A stretch of DNA of 64,000 nt from Curvularia clavata (Eukaryota). This document shows, piece after piece, positions 16,767 through 62,199 of the stretch (position 1 is its first letter; each line of letters begins with the position of its first letter). Both the position numbers and the translations under genes were made by a program. The stretch covers positions 372,001 through 436,000 of the forward strand of contig CP089275.1 of assembly GCA_023920165.1 (NCBI GenBank), given 5' to 3'. The notes below the pieces were generated by a model, which made no database searches, was not told the DNA's origin, and saw nothing but the letters and a program-made list of their open reading frames with translations.

Positions 16767-18948
16767 GGTTTGGACTGCGAATCTTTCAGAGGGATCGTCT
16801 GGAGGTATCCAATCTGTCGAACTATCTCGTAGTCGTCCGGACTTTTTCTAATAATTGCTGACGTGGGTGCCACCGTTCTTCGATCTTTGTATCTGCATCA
16901 CGCACAAACTTTGTTCGTCTCTAGAATCGCTAAGGTATTTGCGATCAACTACTTATCAAATCCCTCTTGTGGGCGTTGCTAAGATATGCGCCGCGATCAG
17001 ATAATCCGTTGGGCATCTTGAGTAAGCGACGGACGCAAGGAACAGGCTGGGCTGGTTGCTTGACAACCTGTGCGTCAGCAGGCTTGTGGCTGATAAAGTC
17101 CGTTAAATGTCACGTTTCCTTTCGGGCTAAAGCTAATTAAGGGCACCTCCAAGGCCCGATTGACTAGGCCCCTGCGCATCTCCACGACGCTATCCGCTGC
17201 GCCAAGATTCTTTGGGTGGAGGAAATCATGATTGAAATCAAATCACCATGAGAGGAACATTGGCTTTTTGCAACGTGCATCCTATGCCTGGACCTGTGTT
17301 GGCTGGCTCGCTAGATTCTGCCCCACACAAAGGCCCTAGTACAGGTTGCTTTGTATCTTGCAGCTGGCCTGTCTGGGACTCTGAAGCAAATGCCAGCTGC
17401 GACGCACACCTCAAGGCTTGCCGCGATATAACCTCTAAGATCCAGTGACTAGCCGCTTTCTTGACACCTGATCGCGCCGCCGGCCTCCGTTTTGGGCAAA
17501 CTTCTAGAAGGACATTTGGCTGGCAGGGCGTTATCCCTGGTCTTTTTCGTTACTTACCACCCTAGTTTGCAAGCGAGCGCAACCCAAGTGCTGACAAACC
17601 CTCCGACTGCATCATCATCGAGCCTTGGGAGTTGTGCACGCATCCTTGCATGGGGGAGCGATGACTTCATGGCACACAGATTGGGTTGCTAAGTCCCGCA
17701 TGACAGCATTCAACTGGCTTGGGCTGCGGGACTTGAGTGCCAGCTGAGTAACCCCCCTGATCCGGCAACTAACTACATCTCGTGTTAACACAGCTAATAT
17801 TAGCGACTAGTTAACATTCTCCCTTTACTATTCGTCCGTGCGCTAGACTCGATCTTCGCCGGTACGAAATACTATCGACCGGTCCTCCGTGGACCAATCG
17901 ATTGTGAATTGATCCAAAATGGATGGTCGCTTATCCCAATGGCTTGGTCGGTCATGCCGTCCTTAGTGTTCACCACACGGTACACGCGCCATACTTGCCA
18001 TGACAGAGTCACACAACAACGTTTAGTCACGTTTTTTTTGCGCACCTAGGCCTGGACCGGCAACCTACTATGTCTCGCTATTTGATATGCTTACCAGAGA
18101 AACGACAAAGCAGCTTTCTATGAAGGGCCGTTTCATGCGAGAAGACACCAGAACAAAGCCTCGCTGCATATATATGCTGCTTGCGGCAGCCCCTGGCAGC
18201 GATGAAGTATCCCAGAAATCGGCGCTACTGCCGATACTACCATCGCTCAGACAAATTCGGACTGGCATACTCTGTGGACTGGTCTACAACCCTGGTAGCA
18301 TACTTTGAGCCTTGTGCAGAGCGGCTCGAAATAAGCATCTGACACACCAACAGCCCTACAGCATTCCGCTGCACTCTGCCGACCGTGCATTCCGAATACT
18401 TGGAGAAGAGTGTGGCCCGGACGCCACACATCTAAAAAAGGCATCCGCACACGCTCCTACCCCATTCACCGGCGCCGCTGCGAGTGTGACCGTCTCCAGC
18501 TTAACGGGTCCCGGTCCACGAGCCCAGACCAACTTTGGTAGCAACGGACTCCAATACTCAACCTTGCTGCCCTAAAAGAAGGACGCTTTGACCTCATAAT
18601 ACCTGCGGTGAACCACTTCCTTGGATGATGCGATACTTGGCCGGCTTAAGACATCTTCTCTATTCTGGCATCTGGTCTACTGTTACCGATTCTTAGTGAT
18701 CGTGAAATCGGACTTCAATGCCATCGGTATTGGGGGCTTGTGTGGTTGTCGACGAGAATATAAGAATTGGGAAACCTTCAATTCAAGGCATCATCACCAT
18801 CCACAATATCAACATTCATCCACCCCTCCAACACTACGCACTCTCACCAAAATCTCCCAGCCATAAAACGTCAACAAAATACGCCACACATACTTGGAAA
18901 TATATTTTCAAGTCTGACAAACACCGATCCCCTTCAATCCTCTGATAT

Positions 18949-19464
18949 ATGGGTGATCGCCCTCCCGAGACTTCAAGCGCATCAAACTCCACAAAGCCCA
19001 CTACTCACAACGATACTTCCGGAACTAGCTCTCTTAGCAGCTCTTCCACAACACAAGACTTTACGGAAACTCCTCAATCTATCGCTGAACAACCTGTCTC
19101 TACGCCAGTGATTGTCATTACAGATTCTCACACTCCCTCACCCGACTCTACTCCTAGTCAAAGCCACTTTGCAGCTGCACGCCATCGATCGAGAGGTACC
19201 TCTTCTTCACCGCAATCCCCTAGGAGACAACGCTCGCCACTATCATCGGAACGCCTACAGCGCTCCCATTCTCAACCCGCCGAGGAAACTCACAACAGCA
19301 CTGCAGTCACAATGTCTTCTTCTGCCTCTTCTCCTTCAGCTACCTCTACTGCTGGCAGCAATTCCGGATCTGGCCAGAGCTACCAGCTTCCATATGCTCC
19401 TTTCCCGTACCCAATGCCCGCTCAGCCCCGCGGAGGCCAGCAACAAGGAGGACAGGGCAAATAA
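18949..19464 (+). CDS. Ser/Thr-rich low-complexity hypothetical protein
   Basis: 171-aa ATG-initiated ORF in otherwise gene-free DNA; no recognisable domain. Confidence 0.5.
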   Translation: MGDRPPETSSASNSTKPTTHNDTSGTSSLSSSSTTQDFTETPQSIAEQPVSTPVIVITDSHTPSPDSTPSQSHFAAARHRSRGTSSSPQSPRRQRSPLSSERLQRSHSQPAEETHNSTAVTMSSSASSPSATSTAGSNSGSGQSYQLPYAPFPYPMPAQPRGGQQQGGQGK

Positions 19465-46445: not shown

Positions 46446-46642
46446 CTTGTGATACAAAAGTTGATGTGCTAAGGTGCGTGTGGCTAATTGAACCATCTCA
46501 GGACGGTTCAACACTGATATATGTAGTGACAGTGAGTTAATATGACTCATGCTGAGCAATGCCAAGCAAGGACCCCATCTACCGTGTGCGTGTGTACAAA
46601 TAGAAAAGTCTCCACACAAAGATAAGAACAGACGAATAATTA

Positions 46643-47240
46643 ACGTAGTGGATACCTAGGGTAGTCGCGCAGCCCACCAAACCTTCGCACCTCTATCAGC
46701 ATATAGCTTCACCATAATACGACCATCGCAATATATATCAGTATAATAGATAGATTAGTTACTAGTTAACTATAGTATCTTTCTTACATGTACGCGCATT
46801 ATGGCCAGTCTCTCTACACCCACTGCAGCGCGCTAAAGCCTATCAGCTGATACCTCATCGCTCTCCTCCATGGCGCTGTTCATAAGCAATGCTGATCTGT
46901 CTCACGTTGCGCTAGTAGATCCTCGCCTTCTCCCTTTATAAACACCCCTCGCTTCTATATCTACTTTTTTTTTTACGCTGGCTACGCTTTATCACTATCT
47001 TTTTAGCCTGCTAGAGACCCTCTGCTAGAACAGCTAGTGGAGTAGGTGTACGCAGCTTCACGTCAAGCTTTGATAGAACACTATCTAGCTAGAGAGGCAT
47101 AAGGCCTGCGCCACAGAAGGCAGAGCAGATACCAGCTGAGGTAGACGATCGATCGAAGGCGGCCTTAAACGCTGGTAGAAACTCGAGCTTAGTAATGTGG
47201 TTGATGTGGTTGCGTATCAGGCTCTCCACCTCACGGCTAG
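46643..47240 (-). mobile_element. Fot1/pogo DNA transposon 3' remnant, RIP-mutated
   Basis: HITKLEFLPAFKAAF...GL.P...VLSKLDVKLRTPTP and terminal zinc knuckle RCSGCRETGHNARTC; ends ACGT+TA at 46641-46646. Confidence 0.88.
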
Positions 47241-47758
47241 GTGTAGCTAGCGCGCATCCGTGATTCTGATTAGCTCGCGTCGGATTTTGGCTGCGAAAAT
47301 GGAACGGCAAGCCCATGACTGCAGACCTGGATGCTTCAGGACTGCCTGATTCCTATGGGGATTACTCACGACCCTTAATTGTGGACTCTGTAGCCTAGCC
47401 AGCCGGTAAAGCCAGACATGTCATGTGATGGTCCTAGGCTTACACTTAGCGTTACGAAACGACAACAAAGCAGAAGAAAAAAGAAGCAGAAAAAGCTGCA
47501 GTTGAGATAGCTGCTAAAACTCTGTAATCCATGTGTAAAGAGTGGCAATTGTAATTAGGTTGACTGAAATAAACCCGATCTTCTGAGGGGTGGCCAATTT
47601 CATCATGTGGTCGGAAACCCAACCCTATGTGGCTGGGAACTAGATAGGCTAGCTTATCCCAAAGTTCCTTGAATGTCGATCCATCCATCTTCCCCGGACC
47701 CCAGACTAGCGCATGTCAATGGCTGACAGTTTACTGTGTAGTTTTAAAGCCCACATTG

Positions 47759-47803
47759 CGGGATCGTTCCCGTCACTTATCTACCGTGCCGGGTCCACGG
47801 CCG
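47759..47803. promoter_or_regulatory. Two CGG-N8-CCG Zn2Cys6-type sites with an intervening GATA site (CTTATC), permease promoter
   Basis: CGGGATCGTTCCCG 47759-47772; CGGGTCCACGGCCG 47790-47803. Confidence 0.65.
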
Positions 47804-48054
47804 ACCCCCGCATTTGATCTTATGCGACACATTGATCCCTACTGGGTCGCCTTAAACAGGCTAGCCGTATCAGACTTGTGCAAGATGCCCTGTGCAGGAA
47901 CCTGACCAGGCAGTCCTTCGTGAAGGATATGTATACAGGGCCTTGGACCGCAATTTCCAATCTTTTATCTCGACACTCTCTATGCCTCTTTCACCTCTTT
48001 ACTATCCAATCTTGTATACACCCAGTCTTGTATAATATTTTGGGCCCTCTGACG

Positions 48055-49972
48055 ATGGAGGATAACAAGAAAGAGAAGGTCATCGATATCTCGACCGCTG
48101 GGGACCTCTATCTAGTCGAGACAACGGGCGAGCCTATAGCGGGCCATGTCGGCAATGCAGACGAGCTCCAGCGACATCTGGGAAATCGTCAGCTGCAATT
48201 GATTGCTATTGGTATGTATTTACTAGGTTATCGCAAGAGCCGACGTGAAAAAACGGTGGAAAAGTCTCCGAGTTCTTGCAGGGGCACTTCACTTTGCCAA
48301 TTCTGAGATGTTTACTGACATGTCTCAGGTGGATCCATCGGAACAGCAACCTTCGTCTCCATCTCCAGTGGTCTGCTCAAGGGCGGGCCCGGTTCCCTCT
48401 TCCTCGCCTACACCATCTACACCTGCATGTTGGGATTAGTCAACAACTGCCAAGCCGAAATGAGCTCCTATATGCCCGTTACTGGTGGTTTTATTCGCAT
48501 GTCTGGTAAATGGGTCGACGAGGCTTTGGGCTTCATGATTGGTTGGAGTGAGTCCTGTGTTCGCGGTGAACTAATTGACTATACTAAATTACTGCAGACT
48601 TCTTCATTTACGAGGCCATTCTTGTGCCCTTTGAAATTACCGCACTGAACCTTGTCTTGTCCTTCTGGCGCGATGATATACCCGTGGAAGCCGTCGTGGC
48701 GGTATGCATTGTGCTCTACTTCTGTATCAACGCATTTGTTGTCAAGTGGTACGGAGAGTGCGAGTTTTGGCTTGCCCTTGGAAAAGTGTTCCTCCTCCTT
48801 ATGCTCTTCTCTTTCACCTTCATTACTATGGTCGGCGGCAATCCCAAGCATGACGCGTATGGCTTCCGCTACTGGAAGAATCCTGGCTCTTTCGCTGAAC
48901 ACATTACAACGGGTCCTCTCGGCCGATTCGAGGGTTTCCTTGGTGCCCTGTGGAGTGCAGCTTTTACCGTCGTCGGCCCAGAGTATGTGTCCATGGTTGC
49001 CGGCGAGGTCAAGAGCCCGCGAAAGTACCTCAAGCAGGCGTTCAAGGCAACATATGCGCGTTTCGGTCTATTCTTCATCGGTAGTGCGCTCTGTGTCGGT
49101 ATTGTTATCCCGTACAACAATACAACTCTAGTCGATATCTTCAACGGCAAGGCCGGTGGCGCCGGAACTGCGGCGGCCTCTCCATACGTCATCGCCATGA
49201 ACAGTACTTCTCCCTTCTAAATCCTAACACGAGTACTCTAAAGCTAATTTCTTCTCTAGACCTGGGCATCCATGGCCTTCCACATCTCACCAACGCCCTC
49301 CTCGTAACCTCGATTTTCTCCGCTGGCAACGCCTACACCTACTACGGTACGCGCTCCCTCTATGGCCTCGCCATCGAGGGCCAAGCGCCTCGCTTCCTGA
49401 GAAAATGCACCAAGGCCGGCGTCCCCATCTATTGCCTCTGCATTACGACCCTGTTCCCCTTCTTCGCCTTCCTCAACGCCTCCTCGGGCTCGGCCAAAGT
49501 TCTGACCTGGCTCACCAACATCATTACCGGCGCCCAAATCATCGACTACATTGTCATCTGCATCAACTTCATCTTCTTCTACCGCGCGTGCAAGGCGCAG
49601 GGCCTCGACCGCCGCTCGCTGCCATATTTCGGCCGCTTCCAGCCGTGGTCTGCATATATCCCACTGGCGTTTTTGACGTGTGTGGTTACGTGCTACGGAT
49701 ATACGACGTTCCTCCCAGGGAACTTCACGGTTGACGACTTCTTCACTTACTACATGATGCTGCTGGTGGACCCGGTGCTGTTCATTGGCTGGAAGCTGTG
49801 GAAGAAAACAAAGTTCATTAAAGCGAGCGAGGCGGATCTGGTATGGGATAAACCGATTATTGATGCTTATGAGGATGCACTAGAGGAGGAGAAAGTAGGG
49901 TTCTGGAGGGATGTGGGGAATATGTTTGGGAAGTGCTTCATGAAGAGGAAGAAGGTGGACGAGGAGAAGTGA
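48055..49972 (+). CDS. APC/YAT-family amino acid permease (proline-permease-like)
   Basis: LQRHLGNRQLQLIAIGGSIG, AEM, YGECEFW, GFRYWKNPG, SPYVIAM, TRSLYGLA.EG.AP; introns 48212-48328, 48548-48597, 49204-49259. Confidence 0.95.
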
Positions 49973-50389
49973 GGGACGGAGTGGATGAGGTCCATGACTT
50001 TGTGGAGCTAAACAGAGGATCCGGTGGCATAATTACATTGTATACCTAAATGGGACGTTTGACGTCCACGGAAATCACACGGTTTCAATCCTATAAATGG
50101 GTTCCGCTCGCTACTCTTGCTAAGCATTGAATTTGACCAGAATGCTCCGACCAGGGCTCTACACTTTCGCAACATTGCATCCCACCCCATGGTAAACTTT
50201 TGAAGAACTGGATTTGAGGTCCTCGTGCGGAGCTAGCTTTGATTAGGCACAATGTTCGCTGCTCGCAGCCACCCAATCCGCCAGCCCTCAAGTCCTAGCG
50301 CGGGAACGACGCATGTCACGCATCACAATCAGCGCGGAGCCTCCGATTGCCAGCCTGCATCTCTCCGCGTCCGCGAATATGCGGCCACT

Positions 50390-50403
50390 CGGGTGGCATT
50401 CCG
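50390..50403. promoter_or_regulatory. CGG-N8-CCG site, aminotransferase promoter
   Basis: CGGGTGGCATTCCG. Confidence 0.65.
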
Positions 50404-50568
50404 GGCATACAGCTCGAATCCCACATACATTGCCCCGACGCCCAACACGGCTAGAGCATAGTCCAGTATACATGTATACATATATACAAGTGCAAAATCC
50501 GTGTGTACCTCCTGTTTCCGCGACATCTTTGTAGCGACTTTCTATCAGGGCTTTCTGCAATTACAAAC

Positions 50569-51900
50569 ATGTTCCGCAGCGTTCCCCCCAGCCCCGCAGA
50601 CCCCGTGTATCTCCTCTCGCAGCAGGTACGCGAGGACACGGCGCCTGAGAAAGTTGACCTTGGCGTTGGCGTGTATAGGAATGAGAGGGGGCTGTATCAC
50701 GAGCTGAGGGCGTTGGGGGCGGTTTGTACGCCAGTCAAAATTGGTAATTCAAGTCTAATCACAAAGGGCACAGGCAAAGCGTATCCTCGCACAGCAAGAC
50801 GCGAATCACGACTACGAAGTGACAACGGGCAGCGCGGCGTTCCTGACTAACGCTGCAAAAGTGCTATTCGGATGGGAGGCAGATATTCTGTCTTCGGGGA
50901 GAGTGACTTCTGTACAGGCCATCTCAGGCACGGGTGCCATCCACCTCGGCGCCCTCTTCCTCGCCCGTACGCCCTCATTCCAAGGAAAGAAAGTCTACAT
51001 CGGGACCCCAGCGTGGGGAAATTACGTACCGCTGTTCAACCTCGTTGGCTTCGAAGTGGTGACGTACAGGCACTACGATGTCTCGACCGGAACAGTGGAC
51101 TTTGACTCGGTGCTTACAGCGACGAGAAGCGCAGATGCAGGGAGCATATTCGTGCTACAGGGATGCTGCCACAACCCATCTGGTGCCGACTTCTCGCTCG
51201 CGCAGTGGGATAGGCTCGCCGATGAGATGCAGGCGAAGAAGCTGTTCCCGCTGTTCGACATGGCATATCAGGGGCTAGGTGCGTCGCTGGATGAAGATGC
51301 ATATGGTCTGCGATTGTTTGCGGGCAGGAACTTGGAACTCCTCGCTTGTCAGTCTTTTTCGAAGAACTTTGGATTGTATGGGGAGAGGGTAGGTGTGCTG
51401 CATGCTGTGAGTCAGGATGCGGATGTTGCGGCGAGGGTGTATGAGAGATTGAGGTGCTTGATTCGGTGGGAGTTCTCGTCCAGTCCGGCGTATGGCGCGC
51501 GACTAGTGAACATTATACTCAGCGACAACGAATTGCGACAGGACTGGCAAACAGAATTAGCGCAGATTCAGAAGCGGCTTGCCGACAATAGAAAAGCACT
51601 GCACGCGGAGCTGGTTGAGAAGCGTAGTGTGAGTATTTCCCATTGCCCTCACTTGATGGCATTTCGCTGATTCGAATATGTCCAAAGGCTCCAGGCAACT
51701 GGAGCTCGATCCTCTCGTCAAATGGCCTGTTCTGTTTCCTTCCGCTGAGCCCCCAGCAATGCGAACGGCTTGCCGCTGAGTTCCACATCCACATGCTACG
51801 GAACGGGCGCATCAACGTGGCCGGGCTGAACCGGAGCAACATGGATCACGTAGCTTCGGCACTCGTGAAAGTGATGAGCTCACCGTTCTCACGCTTGTGA
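50569..51900 (+). CDS. Class I PLP aminotransferase (aspartate aminotransferase family) with PTS1 -SRL
   Basis: KVDLGVGVYR, SGTGA, HNPSG, DMAYQG, SFSKNFGLYGERVG (PLP Lys), GRINVAGL; introns 50722-50773 and 51629-51687. Confidence 0.95.
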
Positions 51901-51969
51901 GTCTACATGTTAACAAGCCAGATAGCTCGTAATGGCGATATCTGGGCAGCACCGATGCAATGTGAGGAT

Positions 51970-52007
51970 CGGGAGCGTGCCCGACATGTTGCTCGGATGG
52001 GCAGCCG
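51970..52007. promoter_or_regulatory. Two CGG-N8-CCG sites upstream of the Zn2Cys6 regulator
   Basis: CGGGAGCGTGCCCG 51970-51983; CGGATGGGCAGCCG 51994-52007. Confidence 0.65.
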
Positions 52008-52340
52008 GTGGCCCATGCACGCGCTAGAATTAAAAGTGCCGTAATAGTATGCTGAGGGAACAATATCCCGCAAGTAGATTCAAACTTGCAGGCTGCATAT
52101 CAGATGACGTGTGAATTCGAAGGACCTCTCGTGAGGGAGCGTTTGTTGAAGGAAACGGAGAACTGTAGAAAGCTCAGATTAGAGAATGAGTCGCGCTAGA
52201 TAGCCACATTCCACTAGCGTTGGACTTCCCCGCAAATTGCCATCTCGTAACGTGACGCTTGACCTCATCTCAGGCCACGCCGCCTATAGTTGTATACCGT
52301 GAGTTCGTTGCATTGCTGCAGCTAGCCATGTGACACGTTT

Positions 52341-55104
52341 ATGACTGCAATGCAGACGATGCCCAACTCGAGCGAACAGCGACGCGCTTCTAAGCGATCT
52401 TCCAACGCGTAGGGAACCCTTCCGATAGACGTGCATCCGCTTATCAGTGAAGGTGCTCACGGTGTCGACGGCAGAAGATCAAGTGCTCGGGACTGGAGCC
52501 TTGTTCAAACTGTACCAAGAGGAACTTGAGCTGTGTTTTTGACGATCGGGACAATAAGGTGCTGGTCACGCAGGGGTGAGTCAGGCCTTGTTTAATTTTG
52601 TTGAGATCAACAGGCACGATTCTGCTATCTGTCCCGAATCAGAAACCTATGTCGCCTTTTGGAATGCAATGGCAATCTGCAAACTGACTGATTAATAGTT
52701 ATCTCTCTGACCTGCAACAAAAGGTCGCTCGTTTGGAGCGAAGTTTGAGTCACATAGAAACTAACCCTGCCTTGGCCCGTGAATCTCGGGAGCATGGCGA
52801 GGATCAAGTTCAGGCTGGCAGCTTCCACCGGGAACAATCTCTTCAGCCCCCTCGTTGTGGTGACCGTGAACCGGGGGAGACCTCTCGATCGAGTCCTACA
52901 GAGACGCGGGACAACTCTCCAAAGACAGATCAGGGGAATGGGGAAAGCCATGAATTGACAAACCCCTTGCTTGAATCGCCCTCCAAGTTCATGGCCGCTT
53001 CATCCGGGAGGTCATTCTATTTAGGGACTTCCTCCAATTGGTCTTTCCATGGCCAGGTGCTGAATGTAGTTCATCAGCATATCCGCAGAACCCCTCTGCC
53101 CGGAACAGACTTCCTGTTCGATGGGTCGGCGTACGATCTTCCTTGGGTAAGTTGTCATAACTTGATACATTGAAGGCCTTGGCTTTGTGTACCTTGCTGA
53201 CTTGCATGCGATTCCCAGGACGGCACTCGTAGTGTGCTAGAGACAAATGCTCCTGTCATTCCAAGTATCGATTACGCCATATTTCTTGTCAATGCTGTCA
53301 AGTTCCATTGTGGTCAGTTGGTACATTTGTTTGATGAAGAAGAGTTCAACGCCAAGATGTATGCGTTCTACGGGAATGCAGAACCCAACAAGCCTCAGGA
53401 AGGCTTGTGGTATGTTCAGTTTCTACTAATCATTGCCTTTGGAAGGACACTTGTACAACGCAAACACCGAGCATCTAAGCCGCCTGGAGCCGATTTCTTC
53501 GTACACGCTCTTCAGCTACTACCTGATACCAGCCGATTGTGCCGAGAACCACTCTTGGCATCAGAGATACTATGCGGTATCGCTCTCTATCTGCAAGCAC
53601 TAGACTCGCGCAACGCTGCACATGTAACAGTAAGCTTTGTCTGTTTACAAATTTGTAACAATCACTAAGTATCATCAAGATAGGCCAAGCGATGCGAATA
53701 GCATTAGCAGAGGGTATGCACACGGACATGCCAGTTTCAGAACTAGGAGAAGCCTTCGTTCAGCGATGTCGCAAGATCTGGTGGTCCATCTATATTCTTG
53801 ACAGGCAGATGAGTTCGCAGATGGGCGTACCGCAGTCCATACGGGACGATGAGATAACGTGCCAGCTCACACACTTTCCTGGCTCGGTTCAGCGGACAGC
53901 GGCGTTGAAGATGCAGATCAGGCTCGCGCGTATATACGCGGATATAGCGAGGAGTAAGTCGGCTGAGCTCTGGTCACGGACATTATCCAACACGATGGCG
54001 ATCAAATCGGGCATAGGTCCGTTCCAGGCTAACAATACGCAGGCGTTTATGGCCCGAAAGGTCGGCTTCGTAAGAAGTTTGTCATTAGTATCAAGGCTCT
54101 GCTCGACGACATGGCAGCAATCGCAGAGGAACTACGAAATTCCTTCCCTTTGCATTCCGATGAGCGGCTCGGTGGTATATCAAGAATGCCTGCGCATCTG
54201 CATCTAATGTACTATCAGGTATGTCAATACTCCATGTGTGCTGCGTGAATGTAATATCTACCAAGTTTATCGCGCCGTACATGCATGTCTGAACTCAATG
54301 GAGCTGCTACATTGCGTTCCCCGCTGATCATTTTGCGTAGACAATCGTTGTAACAACGAGACCACTACTGTTTTGTTGTCTGAAGAAAGTGTTCGAGTCT
54401 CCAAAAGAAGTGGGACCGCTGGTATCGTCTCGCAAGATCAGGCCTCTGCTAAGCATGTCATTGGATGCTTCACAGAAGATTCTCAACATCCTTGAGAGCC
54501 TGCAAGAGCAGGACTTGTTAGGTATAACTAGTGTAGCGTATTGACAAGTCCATCAAAACTGACAGATTAAATAGAGACTTTTCTTCCATGGGACCTCGAC
54601 TCCCTCTTTGTGTCCACAATGGTTCTCGTCTTGATACGATTCGTCGATGATACCCTTTCCGAAAACAGTTCCGCCTGGATAAGCAAGGCCTTTGCTTTCC
54701 TCGATACCATGATATCAAACGGGAACAAAATTGCCGAATCCAGGGCTGCTGAGTTGCGTAAGCTGGAGGAACTGCTATCCGAGTACTCTGTAAACCGGAC
54801 TCGCCAGCAATACACGACACCTCTTCTACCTCAACAACAGCAACCCGTGGGTCAGTACCAACCACCACCAGATAGGAACTTGATGCGCTCCGACATGCAA
54901 TCGCCGCAAATCATGATGAATTCCGAAGCTATGGGGATGTATACTGCATTTAGCGACGAGAGTAGCGGATTCGGCGACGATTTGACTGCAGAGCAGATTC
55001 TTGCTGTGGCGGAGTCAATGGATCTGGGTACGACTGATTGGCTCAACACGCTCGCGACTATGGATACATATCAAATGGTGGATCCACAGGAGCATCACAT
55101 CTAG
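52341..55104 (+). CDS. Zn(II)2Cys6 transcription factor with fungal TF middle domain (Put3/PrnA-like)
   Basis: CSRCRRQKIKCSGLEPCSNCTKRNLSC after intron 52409-52452; YLGTSSNWSF; RCRKIWWSIYILDR..S..MG.P; about 7 introns; start may be 52341, 52350 or 52359. Confidence 0.92.
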
Positions 55105-55417
55105 AATGTTATTATATCGATCTGGGAGTTCATGAAAACGGCGAGAGTTAAGTAACAAGGTCTTGGGATGTTCTTGCAAGTGTTCGGCTCATGGTGCATC
55201 CAAAACACATACAATGCAGAAATTAACCATAAGAGATGTGGCGTGTAGTAAGATGATACGGAGCAGGCTCTGCAGGGGAGACCTTTGGTTTGTTTCGGCA
55301 CATTTGTCACAAGCAAGGAGTTCTCAGTCATGTCAAACTCGACAGTCAATTTTCAGAAATAAAACGATAGTCTAATTCGCGCTCCAATCTGGGCTATCCA
55401 ACCATGAACCCACAACA

Positions 55418-56799
55418 CTACAACTTCGCCCTGACCGGTTGCTCGGACAGATCGCGGAGCTCTCTGACATCTCCCACTCGCCAGCTCACGTCGGCTTCTT
55501 CAATCGTCTCGCCATTGACGGGCTTCGGTTCCCTCCACCGCCACCTCTTGATCGGCTGCTGTCCGCCCGACGCGTTCAACAGGTCACGCACCCAACTACC
55601 TACGATAGGGAACATCTTGAAACCGTGACCGGAATCGCCGGTCATGACCATAACCGAAGCCGATGTCTTGGGCACGTAGTCGATGATGAAATCCGAGTCA
55701 TCGGTATCAGCGAACCAGCACAGTGACTTCTTGACCAACGGTCGGTCCGCAAGGTGTGGCAGTGTCTGACGGAGGAGCTCCTTCATCTTGAGCTCATCCT
55801 CGTACGGTACAAAGCGGTTGACTTCTTCCGGCGCTTTCGACACACCACTTGAAGGATCCGTATTGATGTAGCCGCCGCCCATCGGGCACAGCTTGAGGAG
55901 GTTCGTCTTCGGGTCTGGCTCGAAAAAGAAGCCCAAGTCACGGGCATATACAACGGGAATACCGCGGAGCGCCGCAGTCTCGTCGTCAGTGAGGCGTACA
56001 TGGCCGACAGACCACGACTTTGCTGAGACATTGGTGCTCAGCTCCGGCAGAATCTTGTGCGCAGCAGCTCCTACTGCAACAATAATGAGGGATGCAGGGT
56101 GCACGCGACCATCCTGGGTTCGTACACCAGTGCCCCGCCTCCCCCGACTGGTGTTCTCATAGACAACTTCCTCAACCGCGCCGACCTTCTCACCGAGGAA
56201 AAACCTCACACCGTTAGACCTCGCAGCACGATAAACACCACGCAGCGCATTCGCAGAGTGCACGTAGCCGTCATATGTGTTTATATAGCCTCTCCATCCG
56301 GGCAGAGCGCCAGTGAACTGCCAGCATGCTTGAAGGAGATCTTTACGGTCACTAACCTTACGGACGAAAGGTCTTATGACGGAGCTGCGCTCTGCCGCTG
56401 CTTGAAACCGCTCCATTGTGTCGACGGCCTTTTGGGGAGCAGCTTCCGAGCAGCAGTTTAGAAAACCGACACGGTGGAAGTAGGGGGCGTAGAAGGGTGT
56501 TTGCCATTCTTTCATTGCTTCCTGATTCCTGGGTTAGATGGGGGTGTTTTTCTTTTTCAGCAAACGCAATTTGAGGGGGGGAGGCATACGATTGCAAGAT
56601 CAGTGTACCAGTCGTCCTCATACTCTGCTCGTGCAATCTTATTGAGATCGTTTGCAGCGGACCAACGCGAAGGAATCTCTTCGTCCTTCTCGAAAACAGT
56701 GATGTTGGTGTATCCGTTTCTTGAGAGCTCGAGCGCTGTGGATAGACCAAATGCACCGCCGCCAATAATAGCAATAGGTTCGCTCCCAGGAAGAGTCAT
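55418..56799 (-). CDS. FAD-dependent oxidase of the sarcosine/pipecolate/fructosyl-amine oxidase family with PTS1 -AKL
   Basis: IIGGGAFG, SAANDLNKI, LCWFADT (flavinylation Cys), GDSGHGFK; intron 56589-56522. Confidence 0.93.
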
Positions 56800-57070
56800 T
56801 TTGAGTAGCTGTAACTATTCAATGAAACTGCGGTGCAGGAATGTGTCGCAGAGATGTCCCTACTTTGTAAACAACACGTCGCGAAGCGATTTTGCAACAA
56901 TCTCAACTACAATCAGGCGATGCTTGGCCGGCATCGGAATTACCGGAATAGGAACTGACGATATGCAATTGCGGGGAATTGACGCAGGTAGTGGGGCAAC
57001 GCGAGCTGGTGCCCTACGGGAGGCCTGCCGATGTATTGTCTATCATCATGCACATGCATTGAACTACTGA

Positions 57071-57181
57071 CGGAATGCTTACCGTATGGCTTCAAATTGA
57101 TCCCATGATAGCATACCGTTAACGGAGGCCACGATGCGCTTCTGGAACAAGGCAATGAATACGAGATCGGGCAATTAACCG
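57071..57181. promoter_or_regulatory. Two CGG-N8-CCG sites in the divergent oxidase/membrane-protein promoter
   Basis: CGGAATGCTTACCG 57071-57084; CGGGCAATTAACCG 57168-57181. Confidence 0.65.
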
Positions 57182-57335
57182 AAAGCTCAACACATCAGCC
57201 AGTGACCATTTTGGTCCGCGTTACATACACGTAGACTTGGGCGATTGGATGTATGTGCTTGAGAATTTGTGGACATCTTGGTTTGATATAGTTGGAATTG
57301 GGAAACTGGCCTTTTTTCGCTTCATCACTGTTCTC

Positions 57336-58239
57336 ATGACGGAGCTTGTCGAAACTCAGAGCATCACTCGAGGTTGGCGAAACAGTCGACTTCCTAGCTA
57401 CCTAGCCGGCGATGTTTCTGCAGCTTGCCTCTCAGCTACACTCATATCGCCCATTCTCACGGCGATAGACAAGTGGGTCCCCTTTCACACTTCTCCATTT
57501 TCATATTGTAACCTCTCATAGAGCTGTCGTCGAAAATGTCTCCTCAACCACGCGGCCCCTCTCAACCGCACTGAAAGAAAACATACTCTGCACCATCCGC
57601 TACCCAAAGTCATTCTTTGCTGCAAAACCCTTCTTCTACATGTGGATGCTCTATGCAGCCACCTACACTACTGCCAACAGCCTGAACACCCTCACTAGCA
57701 TCTCCATGAGCAAGTCCTCAGAATTCCTTGCCAATTCACTCATCTTCATCGCAACGTGCACCGTCAACGTTCCACTCGGGGTCTACAAAGACATCTGCTT
57801 CGTGCAAACGTTCGGCAGGCGGCCCCCAGGACCCGTGAATACGCCTCAAACTAAACCACCGCTTCCCCCTCGATCTCCCACCAAATTTCCCAAAGCTGTA
57901 GCAGCAACTTTCCTCGCTCGCGACGCCATTACCATCCTGGGCTCCTTCACCCTCCCGCCCATGCTCACACACCGCATCCCCATCGCCGATCCCGCGGCGC
58001 AAATGGCGGCGGCGCAGCTGCTGGTGCCAGTCCTGTCGCAATTAGCGGCAACGCCTGTGCATCTTCTGGGGCTGGACTTGTATTCGATTCCTGGAAAGGG
58101 AGAGAGAGGAGAACGGGCGCGGCGGATACGAAGAGGATTAGCAGGGACGACGGCGGTGCGATGTGCTAGAATTGTGCCAGCGTTTGGGGTGGGGGGAATT
58201 GTGAACACGGGGTTGAGGGGGTGGTTCAGGGGGGAGTAG
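57336..58239 (+). CDS. Uncharacterised membrane protein, mitochondrial-carrier-like (resembles the S. pombe SPBC365.16 family)
   Basis: SPILTAIDKAVVEN, LYAATYTTAN, GVYKD, FLARDAITI, TPVHLLGLDLY, RIVPAFGVGG..N; intron 57473-57521; family call from memory. Confidence 0.8.
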
Positions 58240-58855
58240 AGGATGGTGGTATGAGGGCAGAGAGGTTGTGAGGGTTCGAATTGAATGTTGATAATATGTG
58301 GGGACGGCGATTAAACAACCGTTGTGTTTGTGGCCAACATCCAGCTTCTAGATAGGCACGTTCCAGAACAGCAGCTTCTTTGGAACTACGACTGTGTTAC
58401 ATTGTTTTTTATGTTTATGCACCTTCATTCTTGGTGAGTGGCTCAGATATGAAGCACACTTAGAAAACCGGGGATAAAGAACATTCAAAAGCGGCAATAG
58501 CAGATCATTTCTACCAAGTGTATATCGCGTAAGAGCAAGCCGCATTAGGCAATGGAACAAGTATGATTACGAATGTGCTAGTAGCCAAGCTAGGTATGCA
58601 TACCACGAGCACTAGGATATTCGAAACTGGGCAGCCATCTCAAGCTTCAGGCACCAATAAAGCCAATGGAGCTTCTCGATATCGATTCATTCGCTTCAGT
58701 GTTCGTTGCATACTAGATGCAGACGATTCGATAGTCGGTTCCAGAAGGCTACCATCGGCTTCTACAGGGCTAGAGACAAGAGTAACCGCCCGGATCATTA
58801 TTCCGTTATCGATCACGCACTACACGTATAAGCTAAAACGCGGCGCTCTGCGAAT

Positions 58856-58869
58856 CGGCTGCCTGTCCG
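58856..58869. promoter_or_regulatory. CGG-N8-CCG site, proline dehydrogenase promoter
   Basis: CGGCTGCCTGTCCG, with TTATC GATA-type sites nearby. Confidence 0.65.
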
Positions 58870-59120
58870 TTGTATGACTACTTATCGGGAGCAGCATGCG
58901 TTGCTCATGGGTTAGCCTACTTTGTCTACGGAAGCACAGATCTCGCTGGAGAAGCAGATGCGGGGTTGTCGTTTTCAGGTGCCTGTGTATGGCTTGGTGG
59001 GGTATACAGCAAGTATATGAAGATGGTTATTTTATTGTAATGGTCCGCCATTTGGTCTCGAGGCTACCTTGCCCATTGAACGTTTCTTCGCTCAACTAAG
59101 AGACGCTACCCGGAATAACA

Positions 59121-60653
59121 ATGCTACCATATAGGATCGGTGTGGCGACCACAAGGAGATTGGCAAAGAATAGGTTGGCCACTGTATCTTGCCTCCAGGT
59201 TCGGTGGCACACTGGTGTCATTCCACCGACGAGGAATGTCGGAGCACACACAGGAATGAGCAATGATACAACAACAATATCGCGGACGACAAAAGTATTC
59301 TCTCAAGAGGTAGCAGCATCAGATGCACCATTGTAAGTATGATTATGGCCCCTCGTTCTGGCCTGCACAAGCAGTGGGAACAACTCAAAAACCTCCACTG
59401 ACAAAATCATGAGAGCAAAAATGCCTCTTGAGATGTTCCTTCGATCTTTTTTCATAGCCACCATATCTTCTAAGAGATACCTTTTGATACCCTCCTTGAA
59501 ATTGTTGTCATTTTTCGCGAAACCAGGCAGGAGCTACCTTTTCAACGTGGATCGGAATCCCGTCCTCCATGGAATCCTCAAGAAGACTTTCTATAACCAG
59601 TTTTGTGCGGGCGAGTCGAAGCAGGAGACGAAAGCTTGCTGCAAGTCTTTGAACAACCTCGGTTTCAGAGGAGTCATCCTCACATACGCCAAAGAGATGG
59701 TGTTCAACCACAAGAGCAAAGCATCGAGCGTCCACGCTGAACAAGCAGCAAAAGCAGAGACCGTATCAGCACATGATCCCGTGATCGAAGAGTGGCGCGT
59801 AGGAACGCTCGCCACGGTCGACATGATCGACAAAGGCGACATCCTCGCACTCAAGACTACCGGTGGCGGGCCCGCCGTGGGAGAGGCCTTCCACAGAGGC
59901 GAGCTGCCGCCACAGCAGATGATGGATGCCCTCGACGAGATTGCAACCAGGTGCAAAGAACGCGGAATCCAGATCATCGTAGACGCCGAGTCGCAGTACT
60001 TCCAGAAAGGCATCGCTCGCACGGCGCTCGAGCTGATGCGGAAGTTCAATCGCGAGCCCAAAGTCGTCATCTACAACACATATCAGGCGTACCTAAAGAA
60101 CCAACCCAGGTATCTCCAGCAGCATCTCGCTGAGGCAGAGAAAGATGGCTTCACTCTCGGCTTGAAGCTCGTTCGAGGCGCGTACATGTTGTCTGACGAC
60201 CGGTCTCTGATCCATGATACAAAGGAGGACACTGACGCAGCATACAACGGCATCATGGAGGGTGCCCTCCAGCAGAAGCTCTGGGATTTTGGTGTCTCGC
60301 GACCGTTCCCGGCGCTCAACCTATTCCTTGCTAGCCACAACAAGAAGAGCGTCATCACGGCACAGCGATTGCATGTGCAGCGGGAAAAGAGTGGATTGCC
60401 TACAGTGCCGGTTGCCTTCGCACAGCTGCATGGTATGTCGGATGAGGTTGGTTTTTCGCTTCTGAAGGAACAGTGCGCAGACGGAAAGGCACCAGATGTT
60501 TTCAAGTGCTCAACCTGGGGGAGCATGGGGGATTGCGTGGCGTATCTTTTGCGGAGAGCGGTAGAGAATCGGGATGCGGTGTTGAGGACTAAGGATGAGT
60601 TCGATGCATTGAAGAAGGAGTTCTGGAGACGGATGGGACTTAGGAGAGCGTAG
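59121..60653 (+). CDS. Proline dehydrogenase family (PRODH), divergent paralogue with mitochondrial-type presequence
   Basis: FYNQFCAGE, VDAE, YNTYQAYLK, KLVRGAY, ASHN, AQLHGMSD, YLLRRAVEN; Arg-rich, acid-poor N-terminus; intron from 59333. Confidence 0.95.
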
Positions 60654-61081
60654 GAGACAGGTTTCACGTCATAAGCGCATGAAACAACATGAATAAAGTC
60701 ATAAGATTGATATTTGTTTGTTTCCCAGATCTTTGTGGGTTTTGTAATCAGCAGTGTTTCTCTTCGCTCCGACTCATTCCCGTCTCTGAGCAGCTATACA
60801 CAGCTGTACGTTGTAGGTCATTCTTGAGACTGTCTCACAAGCACGGAAATGTAATCGTCTATTCGTGTATGTCGGGCCCTATGTCTTCAAGCGACTCGGG
60901 CTGAATATCCCCAAACCAAGAGGTTGCCATGAATATCTGTGTTCTTGGAAAGACATCCGCCTATTTAGATACAGAAAGCGTCTGACTCATCCATACACAT
61001 TGCTAGGCATCATCATCTCTGCGGATCGATGGTGTCATGAACGATAATAATGCATCGCGATGTGGGGCAGGGGCACCCAAT

Positions 61082-61095
61082 CGGCGAGGCAGCCG
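61082..61095. promoter_or_regulatory. CGG-N8-CCG site, P5C reductase promoter
   Basis: CGGCGAGGCAGCCG. Confidence 0.65.
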
Positions 61096-61224: not shown

Positions 61225-62199
61225 ATGGCTGGCTCTACTCTGTGCATTCTTGGCTGCGGTAAATTATAAGACCCCAACGATAAAATCACCATCTCACATA
61301 GAACCCCAGGCAATCTAGGAACATCCATATTGGAAATTTTAATCGAGGCCCCAGAAGGCTCCGGAGTCTGTTTCACGCATTTCATAGCCTGTGTATATAG
61401 TGCTGCATCGGAAGAACGGTTAGCAAAGCGCTTTCCCAAGGAGAAAGAGTCTGGGAAACTTGTCATCTCTCGCAACCAGAACGCACGTGCAGTCTCAGAT
61501 GCCTCAGTCGTGATTCTAGGCGTGGATCCCGCAGACGTCGAAGCAACTCTAAAGGACGACGGCGTCGCAGCGGGTCTGAGGGGCAAACTTGTTATCAGTA
61601 TTGCCGCAGGTTGGTCGCGCGAAAGCCTACAAAAGATCATCTCCTCTGCCCAAGGATCACCAAGCAGAGATGAGAGAACATGGGTCCTCCGCACCCTTCC
61701 CAACGTGGCGGCGCAGGTGTCCCAATCGCTCACTGCAATCGAAGACCCAGACCCAGACATGCCTCACAAGCACATCAAAACTTGCGAAGCCATCTTTAAC
61801 CAGCTCGGCCGCACGGTGCAGCTCGCTCCGAAACTCATGGCTCCCGCATCTGCCGTGGGTGGCTCGACACCCGCCTTCTGGGCCATCATCTGCGACGCCT
61901 TTATTGATGCGTCTGTTGCAGTGGGCGTCCCTAGAAAATCTGCGCAAGAGATGATATATCAGAGCATGCGGGGCTCGGCGGAGATGTTGCAGAGTGGAAT
62001 TCAGCCAGGGGAGTTGCGGGATATGGGGACGAGTCCGGAGGGGTGCACAATTGGGGGGATTATGGTTATGGAGGAGATGGGGGTGAGGGGGGCGTTAGGA
62101 AAGGCGCTGAGGGAGGCAGTCACGCTTGCACGTTTGATGGGCAGCGAGAGGGAAGGGCTGCATATTAATGATACGAGGGAGAATACGGGTAGGCAGTGA
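61225..62199 (+). CDS. Pyrroline-5-carboxylate reductase family (divergent paralogue)
   Basis: LGCGNLG across intron 61259-61309, VISIAAG, RTLPNVA, GSTPAF, TSPEGCTIGG. Confidence 0.93.

What the first reader, a model, noticed from the sequence alone, without database searches (positions are those of the whole stretch)
47759..61095. CGG-N8-CCG motif in all six upstream regions of the cluster (9 copies), including the regulator's own
Copies start at 47759, 47790, 50390, 51970, 51994, 57071, 57168, 58856 and 61082. Spacers are also related: CGGCTGCCT is shared by 58856 and the reverse complement of 61082; GGCAGCCG by 51994 and 61082; GCATTCCG by 50390 and the reverse complement of 57071. Six fixed bases occur about once per 4 kb at uniform composition and these regions total about 3.6 kb, so about 1 copy is expected (the spacer length was chosen after inspection). 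Established: Zn2Cys6 dimers bind inverted CGG triplets with factor-specific spacing (Gal4 N11, Put3 N10, Ppr1 N6). Inference: this is the site for the embedded TF, with autoregulation and a specificity different from Put3.
Basis: partly seen in the sequence, partly recalled or inferred. Interest (0 to 1): 0.8.

Follow-up and report, generated by a model that had tools for sequence, protein, structure and literature searches.

The report
Conserved promoter motif of fungal proline-type cluster
A 14-base palindromic motif (CGG, eight bases, CCG) sits in front of every gene of a fungal amino-acid breakdown cluster and is kept in the same places in many distant relatives, so it is very probably the docking site of the regulator gene encoded inside the cluster.

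Summary
CGG-N8-CCG occurs 10 times, not 9 (57017 was missed), in the six upstream regions (4,336 bp) of a seven-gene cluster. Shuffles give 0.6, and every other inverted spacer from 0 to 20 gives 0-2. CGG/CCG density there is ordinary.

An independent test used orthologous clusters on metagenome contigs whose coding DNA is only 64-83% identical. In 29 promoter regions (22,954 bp) N8 occurs 45 times against 1-7 for other spacers, and 27 of 29 regions carry a site. A more distant set gives 21 sites in 13 of 13 regions.

The consensus is the palindrome TCGGGAGG|CCTCCCGA. The embedded Zn2Cys6 factor keeps an invariant zinc cluster and linker in all these lineages. That linker has the same length as Put3's, yet Put3-type N10 and PrnA-type sites are absent.

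Best reading: this is the homodimer site of the cluster's own activator, which controls a prn-like, probably (hydroxy)proline-type, catabolic regulon and probably itself. Binding is inferred, not shown. N8 spacing is already known for ClrB/ManR, so this is a new member of a known kind.

The parts
47759..47772 (.). CGG-N8-CCG site, 296 bp upstream of the permease ATG
47790..47803 (.). CGG-N8-CCG site, 265 bp upstream of the permease ATG. A CCCCGC block (reverse of GCGGGG) follows it.
48055..49972 (+). Amino-acid permease gene (4 exons, 564 aa, PF00324)
   Evidence: A contig of run X7 is spliced across intron 49204-49259.
50390..50403 (.). CGG-N8-CCG site, 179 bp upstream of the aminotransferase ATG
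50569..51900 (+). Aspartate/aromatic-type aminotransferase gene (3 exons, 406 aa). It is absent from all 32 metagenome loci. It is fused with the regulator in the public models P0001 and P0036.
51970..51983 (.). CGG-N8-CCG site, 371 bp upstream of the regulator ATG (candidate autoregulatory site)
51994..52007 (.). CGG-N8-CCG site, 347 bp upstream of the regulator ATG
52341..55104 (+). Zn2Cys6 transcription factor gene (8 exons, 736 aa). The zinc cluster is in exons 1-2 and PF04082 in exons 4-5.
   Evidence: All 7 introns are joined out in one contig of run X7. Ortholog P0003 has the same junctions.
54008..54021 (.). CGG-N8-CCG copy inside intron 5 of the regulator gene; probably chance
   Evidence: The genic rate in orthologs is at background.
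55418..56799 (-). FAD oxidase of the fructosyl-amine / sarcosine oxidase family (2 exons, 437 aa, C-terminal AKL)
   Evidence: A contig of run X7 joins across its intron.
57017..57030 (.). CGG-N8-CCG site in the divergent oxidase/unknown-gene promoter. CGGGAGGCCTGCCG is close to the palindromic consensus.
57071..57084 (.). CGG-N8-CCG site in the divergent promoter
57168..57181 (.). CGG-N8-CCG site in the divergent promoter, ending 68 bp before the unknown gene's ATG
57249..58239 (+). Conserved Ascomycota gene of unknown family (2 exons, 313 aa), syntenic in orthologous clusters
58856..58869 (.). CGG-N8-CCG site, 265 bp upstream of the proline dehydrogenase ATG. It aligns with GCGAnTCGGCTGCnnGTCCGAG in 7 orthologous promoters.
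58960..58966 (+). GCGGGGT block conserved in all 8 aligned proline dehydrogenase promoters. Reading it as a CreA-type site is from recall.
59121..60653 (+). Proline dehydrogenase gene (2 exons, 483 aa, PF01619)
59861..59874 (.). CGG-N8-CCG copy inside the proline dehydrogenase coding sequence; probably chance
61082..61095 (.). CGG-N8-CCG site, 143 bp upstream of the P5C-reductase-like gene
61225..62199 (+). Pyrroline-5-carboxylate-reductase-like gene (2 exons, 304 aa; PF14748, PF03807)

Best explanation
CGG-N8-CCG, with extended consensus T-CGG-G/A-A/T-G-G/C | mirror-CCG-A (ideal form TCGGGAGGCCTCCCGA), is the upstream activating sequence of a conserved fungal catabolic regulon.

The Zn2Cys6 factor encoded inside the cluster (52341-55104) most likely binds it as a homodimer. 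Each zinc cluster would read one CGG triplet, and the conserved 14-residue linker plus coiled coil would set the 8-bp spacing.

Through one to three sites per promoter the factor would co-induce seven genes: the permease, the aminotransferase, the FAD oxidase, the unknown membrane-like protein, proline dehydrogenase, the P5C-reductase-like gene, and itself (positive autoregulation). In relatives the same motif fronts a P5C dehydrogenase and a DHDPS-family gene.

The pathway is a prn-like route for a proline-type imino acid. Across all relatives the gene set fits 4-hydroxyproline best: proline dehydrogenase, P5C dehydrogenase, aspartate aminotransferase and a DHDPS-family aldolase.

Shown: the motif, its spacing specificity, its promoter restriction, its conservation together with the factor, and the spliced gene model. 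Inferred: who binds it, dimer binding, activation rather than repression, autoregulation, and the substrate.
For: Window: 10 N8 sites in 4,336 bp of upstream DNA, against 0.61 in shuffles. Every other inverted spacer gives 0-2. No dyad class reached 10 in 2,000 shuffles.

Independent test on orthologous clusters (coding DNA 64-83% identical between lineages, 67-72% to the window): 45 N8 sites in 22,954 bp of promoter, against 1-7 for other inverted spacers. Shuffles give a mean of 3.85 and a maximum of 12. 27 of 29 regions hold a site, against a shuffle mean of 3.55. Genic DNA has 14 sites in 56,275 bp and flanks have 11 in 49,097 bp.

A distant cluster type has 21 N8 sites in 9,183 bp, in 13 of 13 regions.

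Sites keep their place and partly their sequence, as in the proline dehydrogenase site. Half-sites are symmetric (n = 110; T at -1 in 61%), which fits a homodimer.

The factor gene lies in the cluster in 14 of the 18 representative loci analysed. The other 4 are short contigs of 1.8-5.9 kb that end before its position. Its CxxC...C cluster and its FD(D/E)xxxK(V/I)LVT linker have one length in all three groups (orthologs).

The DNA-binding domain matches Lac9 and Put3 structures. PF04082 and PF00172 are present.

A contig of run X7 is spliced at all 7 predicted introns and starts at 52292, about 285 bp downstream of the two sites in the regulator's own promoter.

Zn2Cys6 dimers on inverted CGG repeats are established knowledge. 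ClrB binding to CGGN8CCG needs both triplets.
Against: No binding or expression-dependence data exist for this factor.

The DNA-binding domain has the same Cys-to-coiled-coil length as Put3, which reads N10. Linker length alone therefore does not predict N8.

Another Zn2Cys6 factor with N8 preference (ClrB type) exists in these fungi.

In lineages where P5C dehydrogenase is divergent from the regulator gene, the sites upstream of the regulator could serve only the dehydrogenase.

In the window the two such sites lie 70-107 bp past the aminotransferase stop codon. One unspliced X7 contig runs over them (50668-52148), so they may lie in a transcribed 3' region.

Group B regions were delimited after I had seen the site positions. 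Several group A lineages are related (74-83%), so the 29 regions are not fully independent.

The substrate assignment rests on gene content only. The window itself has no P5C dehydrogenase or DHDPS-family gene.
Confidence: 0.8

Rival explanations
1. The motif is a real cis-element, but a different, unlinked Zn2Cys6 factor with N8 preference binds it (for example a ClrB/ManR-like or a broad-domain regulator). The embedded factor would act through another sequence, such as the conserved direct CGG-N7-CGG repeats.
For: CGGN8CCG is the published site of ClrB/ManR/CLR-2, and another C6 factor shifted a fragment containing it. Orthologous promoters carry a second conserved dyad, direct CGG-N7-CGG: 28 copies against 3-13 for other direct spacings. 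PrnA is reported to use direct repeats as well.
Against: The motif travels with the embedded factor through three divergent cluster types, including a site in front of a newly inserted gene (the aminotransferase). The direct N7 repeat is absent from the window's six promoters (0 copies). The cluster has no link to cellulase or mannanase genes. Outside the cluster promoters the motif is at background.
Confidence: 0.12
2. The factor binds the sites but acts as a repressor, or as a constitutively bound switch like Put3, and it does not regulate itself.
For: Nothing here shows the direction of control. Put3 is DNA-bound with or without inducer (the review read contrasts this with PrnA). Sites near the regulator gene can be ascribed to a divergent neighbour in 4 lineages.
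Against: Sites upstream of the regulator persist where the upstream neighbour is a tandem gene's 3' end (window, L001, L003). Pathway-specific Zn2Cys6 regulators of catabolic clusters are activators as a rule (established knowledge, e.g. PrnA).
Confidence: 0.15
3. The enrichment is a by-product of chance or base composition (CpG-rich promoters) with no function.
For: The spacer was chosen after inspection. Six fixed bases make a short motif.
Against: In 0 of 2,000 shuffles did any of the 63 dyad classes reach 10. Triplet density in the promoters equals the background. The pre-specified N8 was then confirmed in independent DNA: 45 observed, against a shuffle mean of 3.85 and a maximum of 12.
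Confidence: 0.01

Closest known systems
ClrB / ManR / CLR-2 sites (CGGN8CCG) in Aspergillus and Myceliophthora cellulase and mannanase promoters
   Same: Identical core: inverted CGG triplets 8 bp apart, bound by a Zn2Cys6 factor, with both triplets needed (passages of PMC13267753 read).
   Different: The regulon differs (plant polysaccharide enzymes, not clustered with the regulator). The factor here is embedded in an amino-acid catabolic cluster. Its relationship to ClrB was not tested by sequence.
Put3 of Saccharomyces cerevisiae (proline utilisation activator, site CGG-N10-CCG; structure 1ZME)
   Same: The DNA-binding domain aligns without gaps over 39 residues, with the same cysteine spacing and the same length up to the K(I/V)(V/L)V(S/T) strand. 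The target set includes proline dehydrogenase and, in relatives, P5C dehydrogenase. Databases auto-name the orthologs 'proline utilization trans-activator'.
   Different: The spacing is N8, not N10. N10 is at background and absent from the six promoters. The genes are clustered with the regulator. Orthology was not tested.
The prn cluster and PrnA of Aspergillus nidulans (prnA-prnX-prnD-prnB-prnC)
   Same: The architecture matches: a Zn2Cys6 regulator, a gene of unknown function, proline oxidase, an amino-acid permease and (in relatives) P5C dehydrogenase, with divergent promoters. The PrnA facts come from PMC5983819, section 9 passages. The proline dehydrogenase promoter also has a GCGGGG-type block and, in relatives, a GATA block, similar to the CreA/AreA control described for prn.
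   Different: PrnA binds CCGG-N-CCGG and CCGG-N6/7-CCGG. The first form has 0 copies in the window. This cluster adds an FAD oxidase, a P5C-reductase-like gene and an aminotransferase. Aspergillus species have a separate ortholog of this factor (663-755 aa). Whether the unknown gene is related to prnX was not tested.
Gal4 / Ppr1 / UaY-type inverted CGG repeats
   Same: The same logic applies: a homodimer, CGG half-sites, and factor-specific spacing (established knowledge; structures listed).
   Different: The spacing differs (N11, N6). Here one distant lineage also keeps N7 palindromes with the same half-site, CGGATG-N-CATCCG, which hints at some tolerance in spacing.

Membership tests
Zn2Cys6 (Gal4-type) binuclear cluster transcription factor | CX2CX6CX5-12CX2CX6-8C motif near the N-terminus | tested here: met
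   Exons 1-2 give ACSRCRRQKIKCSGLEPCSNCTKRNLSC. PDB matches are Lac9 at 4.4e-5 and Put3 at 1.3e-4. Orthologs carry PF00172.
Zn2Cys6 (Gal4-type) binuclear cluster transcription factor | Fungal-specific middle homology domain (PF04082) | tested here: met
   Exon 5 ORF scores E 2.9e-11. All listed full-length orthologs carry PF04082.
Zn2Cys6 (Gal4-type) binuclear cluster transcription factor | Dimerisation through a coiled coil after the linker | not tested
   A heptad-like YLSDLQQKVARLERSL follows the linker. The palindromic half-sites fit a dimer. No fold or complex was run.
Inverted CGG-Nx-CCG upstream activating sequences | Two inverted CGG triplets at one fixed spacing, enriched in the promoters of co-regulated genes | tested here: met
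   N8 = 10 against 0-2 for other spacers in the window. 45 against 1-7 in orthologs. 21 against 0-4 in group B, apart from N7 = 10.
Inverted CGG-Nx-CCG upstream activating sequences | Bound by the cognate factor, with both triplets required | not testable with these tools
   Needs EMSA, DAP-seq or ChIP.
Put3-type proline utilisation activators | Binding site CGG-N10-CCG | tested here: not met
   N10 has 0 copies in the six upstream regions. The window has 11 against 11.4 expected, all outside those regions. Orthologous promoters have 6 (background).
Put3-type proline utilisation activators | DNA-binding domain and linker of the Put3 type | tested here: inconclusive
   There is a gap-free 39-residue alignment to 1ZME with equal linker length, but the E-value is only 1.3e-4 and Lac9 scores better.
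Put3-type proline utilisation activators | Controls proline dehydrogenase and P5C dehydrogenase genes | tested here: inconclusive
   Sites lie in front of proline dehydrogenase in the window and of a Put2-like P5C dehydrogenase in relatives (E 1.5e-145 to 4OE4). Control itself was not shown.
PrnA / prn cluster | CCGG-N-CCGG inverted or CCGG-N6/7-CCGG direct sites | tested here: not met
   CCGGNCCGG has 0 copies in 64 kb. Direct CGG-N7-CGG has 0 copies in the window's promoters but 28 in orthologs. The full four-base CCGG form was not counted.
PrnA / prn cluster | Clustered regulator, proline oxidase, permease, P5C dehydrogenase and a gene of unknown function | tested here: met
   Gene content and synteny were established. 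P5C dehydrogenase is present only in relatives, not in this window.
ClrB / ManR / CLR-2 regulon | CGGN8CCG in the promoters of cellulase or mannanase genes, with the factor orthologous to ClrB | not tested
   The core motif is the same. The target genes here are amino-acid catabolic genes. No sequence comparison with ClrB was made.

The most novel reading that the evidence does not exclude
This is an undescribed catabolic regulon, widely conserved in Pezizomycotina, for hydroxyproline or a related imino acid. It runs parallel to the classical prn/PUT system. A Put3-like factor governs it, and an unchanged-length linker reads N8 (and N7 in one lineage) instead of N10. That would make it a natural test case for how Zn2Cys6 dimers set half-site spacing. 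It would also show how a gene newly inserted into a cluster (the aminotransferase) acquires the cluster's site.
Probability: 0.45. Interest if true: 0.6.

Novelty: new member of a known kind. Interest (0 to 1): 0.5.

Why it matters
The result gives a ready, testable regulon: one factor, one 16-bp palindrome, and 66 conserved sites in relatives in addition to the 10 here.

The fungal cluster has no description in the literature I could search. Its gene set suggests that plant-associated fungi can break down hydroxyproline-type imino acids, which are abundant in plant cell-wall proteins (recalled).

It also pairs a Put3-like DNA-binding domain with a different spacing, which is useful for the old question of what sets spacing in Zn2Cys6 dimers.

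It corrects a public gene model that fuses the aminotransferase to the regulator and drops the zinc cluster.

The kind of element, and the N8 spacing itself, are already known, so a specialist would find this solid rather than surprising.

Tried and rejected
Whole-genome background: no genome is held for this window, so the count against all promoters could only be done against the 64-kb window and the flanks of related loci.

Earlier scan notes: none exist for this place.

Sequencing runs: no RNA holder is listed. The variant table was cut (1,113 rows not shown), so I could not test whether substitutions in close relatives avoid the triplets. Run X21 covers only 5 of 30 bins.

Unknown gene: Pfam finds nothing for either exon. 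The Atlas gives only unnamed Ascomycota clusters, one of them auto-named 'mitochondrial carrier'. Its relation to prnX was not tested.

Literature: searches for a fungal hydroxyproline or proline cluster with such a regulator found only bacterial, archaeal and yeast work. 'CGG-N8-CCG' in other spellings gave 0 papers, and 'CGGN8CCG' gave 4. Subscription journals are not covered.

Composition, chance, Put3-type N10 sites and PrnA-type sites were each considered and rejected.

No protein-DNA model or dimer prediction was run.

The PDB match of the DHDPS-family gene does not distinguish a 4-hydroxy-2-oxoglutarate aldolase from other family members.

Full report
**What is in the region**

The window is fungal DNA. 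Pfam scans of open frames, hand-checked splice models and contigs of a public run give seven genes between 48.0 and 62.2 kb:
- an amino-acid permease (48055-49972, +);
- an aspartate/aromatic-type aminotransferase (50569-51900, +);
- a Zn2Cys6 transcription factor (52341-55104, +; 8 exons, 736 aa);
- an FAD oxidase of the fructosyl-amine/sarcosine oxidase family ending in AKL (56799-55418, -);
- a 313-aa protein of no known family (57249-58239, +);
- a proline dehydrogenase (59121-60653, +);
- a pyrroline-5-carboxylate-reductase-like gene (61225-62199, +).

One contig of run X7 is joined across all seven predicted introns of the regulator gene, with GT..AG ends. It is also joined across the oxidase intron and one permease intron. 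The annotated ortholog P0003 has the same exon junctions through the zinc cluster.

Exon 4 of the regulator is 100% identical to an NCBI protein labelled Curvularia clavata (P0001). That public model fuses the aminotransferase to the regulator and lacks the zinc-cluster exons.

**The observation**

There are 12 copies in the span:
- one in intron 5 of the regulator;
- one in the proline dehydrogenase coding sequence.

The six upstream regions total 4,336 bp.

A scan of spacers 0-20 in three orientations gives 10 for inverted N8. Every other inverted spacer gives 0-2, everted repeats 0-2, and direct repeats 0-4.

In 2,000 dinucleotide-preserving shuffles N8 averaged 0.61 with a maximum of 4. 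The best of all 63 dyad classes never reached 10. This deals with the fact that the spacer was picked after inspection.

CGG+CCG density in these promoters (24.4 per kb) equals that of the rest of the window (23.6 per kb). The rest of the window has 11 N8 copies in about 48.5 kb, in line with the other spacers there. The excess (23 against 11.2 expected) is therefore the cluster's promoters.

**Independent test in related DNA**

A search of metagenome contigs with the oxidase's large exon returned 32 loci. tblastn with the window's gene models shows the same gene order in most of them: reductase-like, proline dehydrogenase, unknown gene, oxidase, regulator, and then permease or a divergent aldehyde dehydrogenase.

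By oxidase DNA identity the loci fall into three sets:
- group A, about ten lineages, 64-83% identical to each other and 67-72% to the window;
- group B, a distant set (oxidase 46% at protein level);
- a third type, L031/L032.

For group A I used 13 of the 19 loci. I left out the near-duplicates L006, L007, L008, L010, L011 and L015, and took only one region from L027, which is 96% identical to L002.

In 29 gene-bounded promoter regions (22,954 bp, window excluded) inverted N8 occurs 45 times, and all other inverted spacers 1-7. 27 of the 29 regions hold at least one site. The two misses are regulator-upstream stubs on contigs that end after 526 and 241 bp.

Shuffles give 3.85 sites on average (maximum 12 in 300) and 3.55 regions with a site. 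Genic DNA of the same loci has 14 sites in 56,275 bp. Flanks outside the clusters have 11 in 49,097 bp, and two of those lie between two further candidate members in L003.

For group B and L031 I used 5 of 13 loci. The 13 regions (9,183 bp) hold 21 N8 sites, with every region hit. I delimited those regions after seeing the site list.

Promoter DNA at this divergence does not otherwise align, yet sites keep their place. There are two sites 150-390 bp before the oxidase ATG in eight lineages. The proline dehydrogenase site reads GCGAnTCGGCTGCnnGTCCGAG in most lineages.

**The site**

Fifty-five sites, read as 110 half-sites, give this consensus:
- T at -1 (61%; G only 5%);
- CGG;
- G/A (44% / 27%);
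- A/T (47% / 30%);
- G (52%);
- G/C.

The ideal site is the palindrome TCGGGAGG|CCTCCCGA, and several natural sites come close to it. The symmetry fits a homodimer.

**The factor**

The zinc cluster and the stretch that follows (C-x-FD[DE]-x-x-[NQ]K-x-LVT, then a heptad-like YLSDLQQKVARLE) have one length in groups A, B and L031. The same holds in named orthologs from Pleosporales, Aspergillus and Colletotrichum.

Against solved structures the domain matches Lac9 (4.4e-5) and Put3 (1.3e-4). The Put3 alignment has no gaps over 39 residues, so the distance from the last cysteine to the coiled coil equals Put3's.

Put3's N10 site is nevertheless absent from the six promoters and sits at background in the window. 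PrnA's CCGG-N-CCGG does not occur at all (PrnA facts from passages of PMC5983819).

**Mechanism proposed**

The embedded factor binds the palindrome as a dimer and co-induces the seven genes. It probably also induces itself.

Regulator-upstream sites are found in 8 of 10 lineages. These include three in which the upstream neighbour is only the 3' end of a tandem gene: the window, L001 and L003.

In the window these two sites lie about 285-320 bp before the start of the spliced regulator contig.

None of this shows binding. That step is inferred from co-inheritance of the factor and the site and from what is established for the family.

**What the cluster does**

In relatives the motif also fronts a P5C dehydrogenase of the Put2/ALDH4A1 type (1.5e-145 to 4OE4) placed divergently from the regulator, and in L003 a DHDPS-family gene. 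A Xylaria gene model fuses the regulator to a proline-racemase-family domain (P0118).

The combined gene set comprises:
- proline dehydrogenase;
- P5C dehydrogenase;
- an aspartate-type aminotransferase;
- a DHDPS-family aldolase or deaminase;
- an FAD amine oxidase;
- a reductase;
- a permease.

From recalled pathway knowledge this resembles 4-hydroxyproline breakdown in animals and in bacteria. I rate a proline-type imino acid as the substrate at about 0.7 and hydroxyproline specifically at about 0.45. The window itself holds no P5C dehydrogenase or DHDPS-family gene.

The aminotransferase is missing from all 32 loci. It is next to the regulator in the window and in a Didymella record (P0036). 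Its promoter has one site, so a gene added to the cluster carries the cluster's motif.

**Comparison with what is known**

CGGN8CCG is in print as the ClrB/ManR/CLR-2 site (passages of PMC13267753). It is also mentioned for GliZ (PMC4006717) and BcSpd1 (PMC9280406). Neither the kind of element nor the spacing is therefore new.

The architecture parallels the prn cluster of Aspergillus nidulans, but the site differs.

My searches found no description of this cluster or of its regulator's site. They cover open-access papers and preprints only.

**Verdict**

Binding remains to be shown.

This is a new member of a known kind and of moderate interest. It gives a clean regulon prediction, a likely new fungal catabolic pathway, and a Put3-like domain with a different spacing.

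Noticed in passing
window 50569-55104: The public protein P0001 (1063 aa, labelled Curvularia clavata) fuses the aminotransferase to the regulator and omits the zinc-cluster exons. A Didymella record (P0036, 1025 aa) has the same domain pair. A spliced contig of run X7 and the ortholog P0003 support two separate genes, with a 44-nt first intron in the regulator.
   Followed up: yes
L004:4004, L005:7810, L025:8716, L013:3600 and others (list): A second conserved dyad, direct CGG-N7-CGG, occurs 28 times in orthologous promoters against 3-13 for other direct spacings. An example is GCGGCTTGGATCGGGTTATGC upstream of proline dehydrogenase, with similar blocks upstream of the reductase-like and regulator genes. 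The window's six promoters have none. It may be a second factor's site or a second binding mode.
   Followed up: partly
window 58960-58966; L001-L027 proline dehydrogenase promoters: GCGGGGT is conserved about 100 bp downstream of the N8 site in all 8 aligned proline dehydrogenase promoters, and its reverse (ACCCCGC) lies upstream in 6. GAGATAAGG is conserved in 6 relatives but not in the window. From recall these look like CreA-type and GATA/AreA-type sites, as in the prn cluster.
   Followed up: partly
L016:9452, 9496; L019:9463, 9507; L020:8907; L022:9442: The distant cluster type keeps N7 palindromes CGGATG-N-CATCCG in the dehydrogenase/oxidase divergent promoter. They sit next to N8 sites built from the same half-site (CGGATGGGCATCCG). 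N7 = 10 against 0-4 for other spacers.
   Followed up: partly
window 46600-47650: Contig depth in runs X3, X5 and X21 is 10-20 times that of the neighbouring DNA, with many short pieces and loose ends at 46770, 47005 and 47239. This is a dispersed repeat between the glycosyltransferase gene and the permease promoter.
   Followed up: no
window 54572-56520: One X7 contig runs without a break from the last exon of the regulator gene through the convergent oxidase gene. Either the two 3' ends overlap or the assembly merged them. Another X7 contig (50668-52148) is unspliced over the aminotransferase gene and passes the two sites upstream of the regulator.
   Followed up: no
window 55418-55429: The FAD oxidase ends in AKL. 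From recall this is a peroxisomal targeting signal type 1, while proline dehydrogenase has an N-terminal extension exon (59121-59332). The pathway may be split between compartments.
   Followed up: no
window 18220-18233: An N8 copy outside the cluster has consensus-like flanks on both sides (aatCGGCGCTACTGCCGat). It lies about 700 bp upstream of an open frame at 18946-19461 with no Pfam match. It could be an unlinked target or chance.
   Followed up: no
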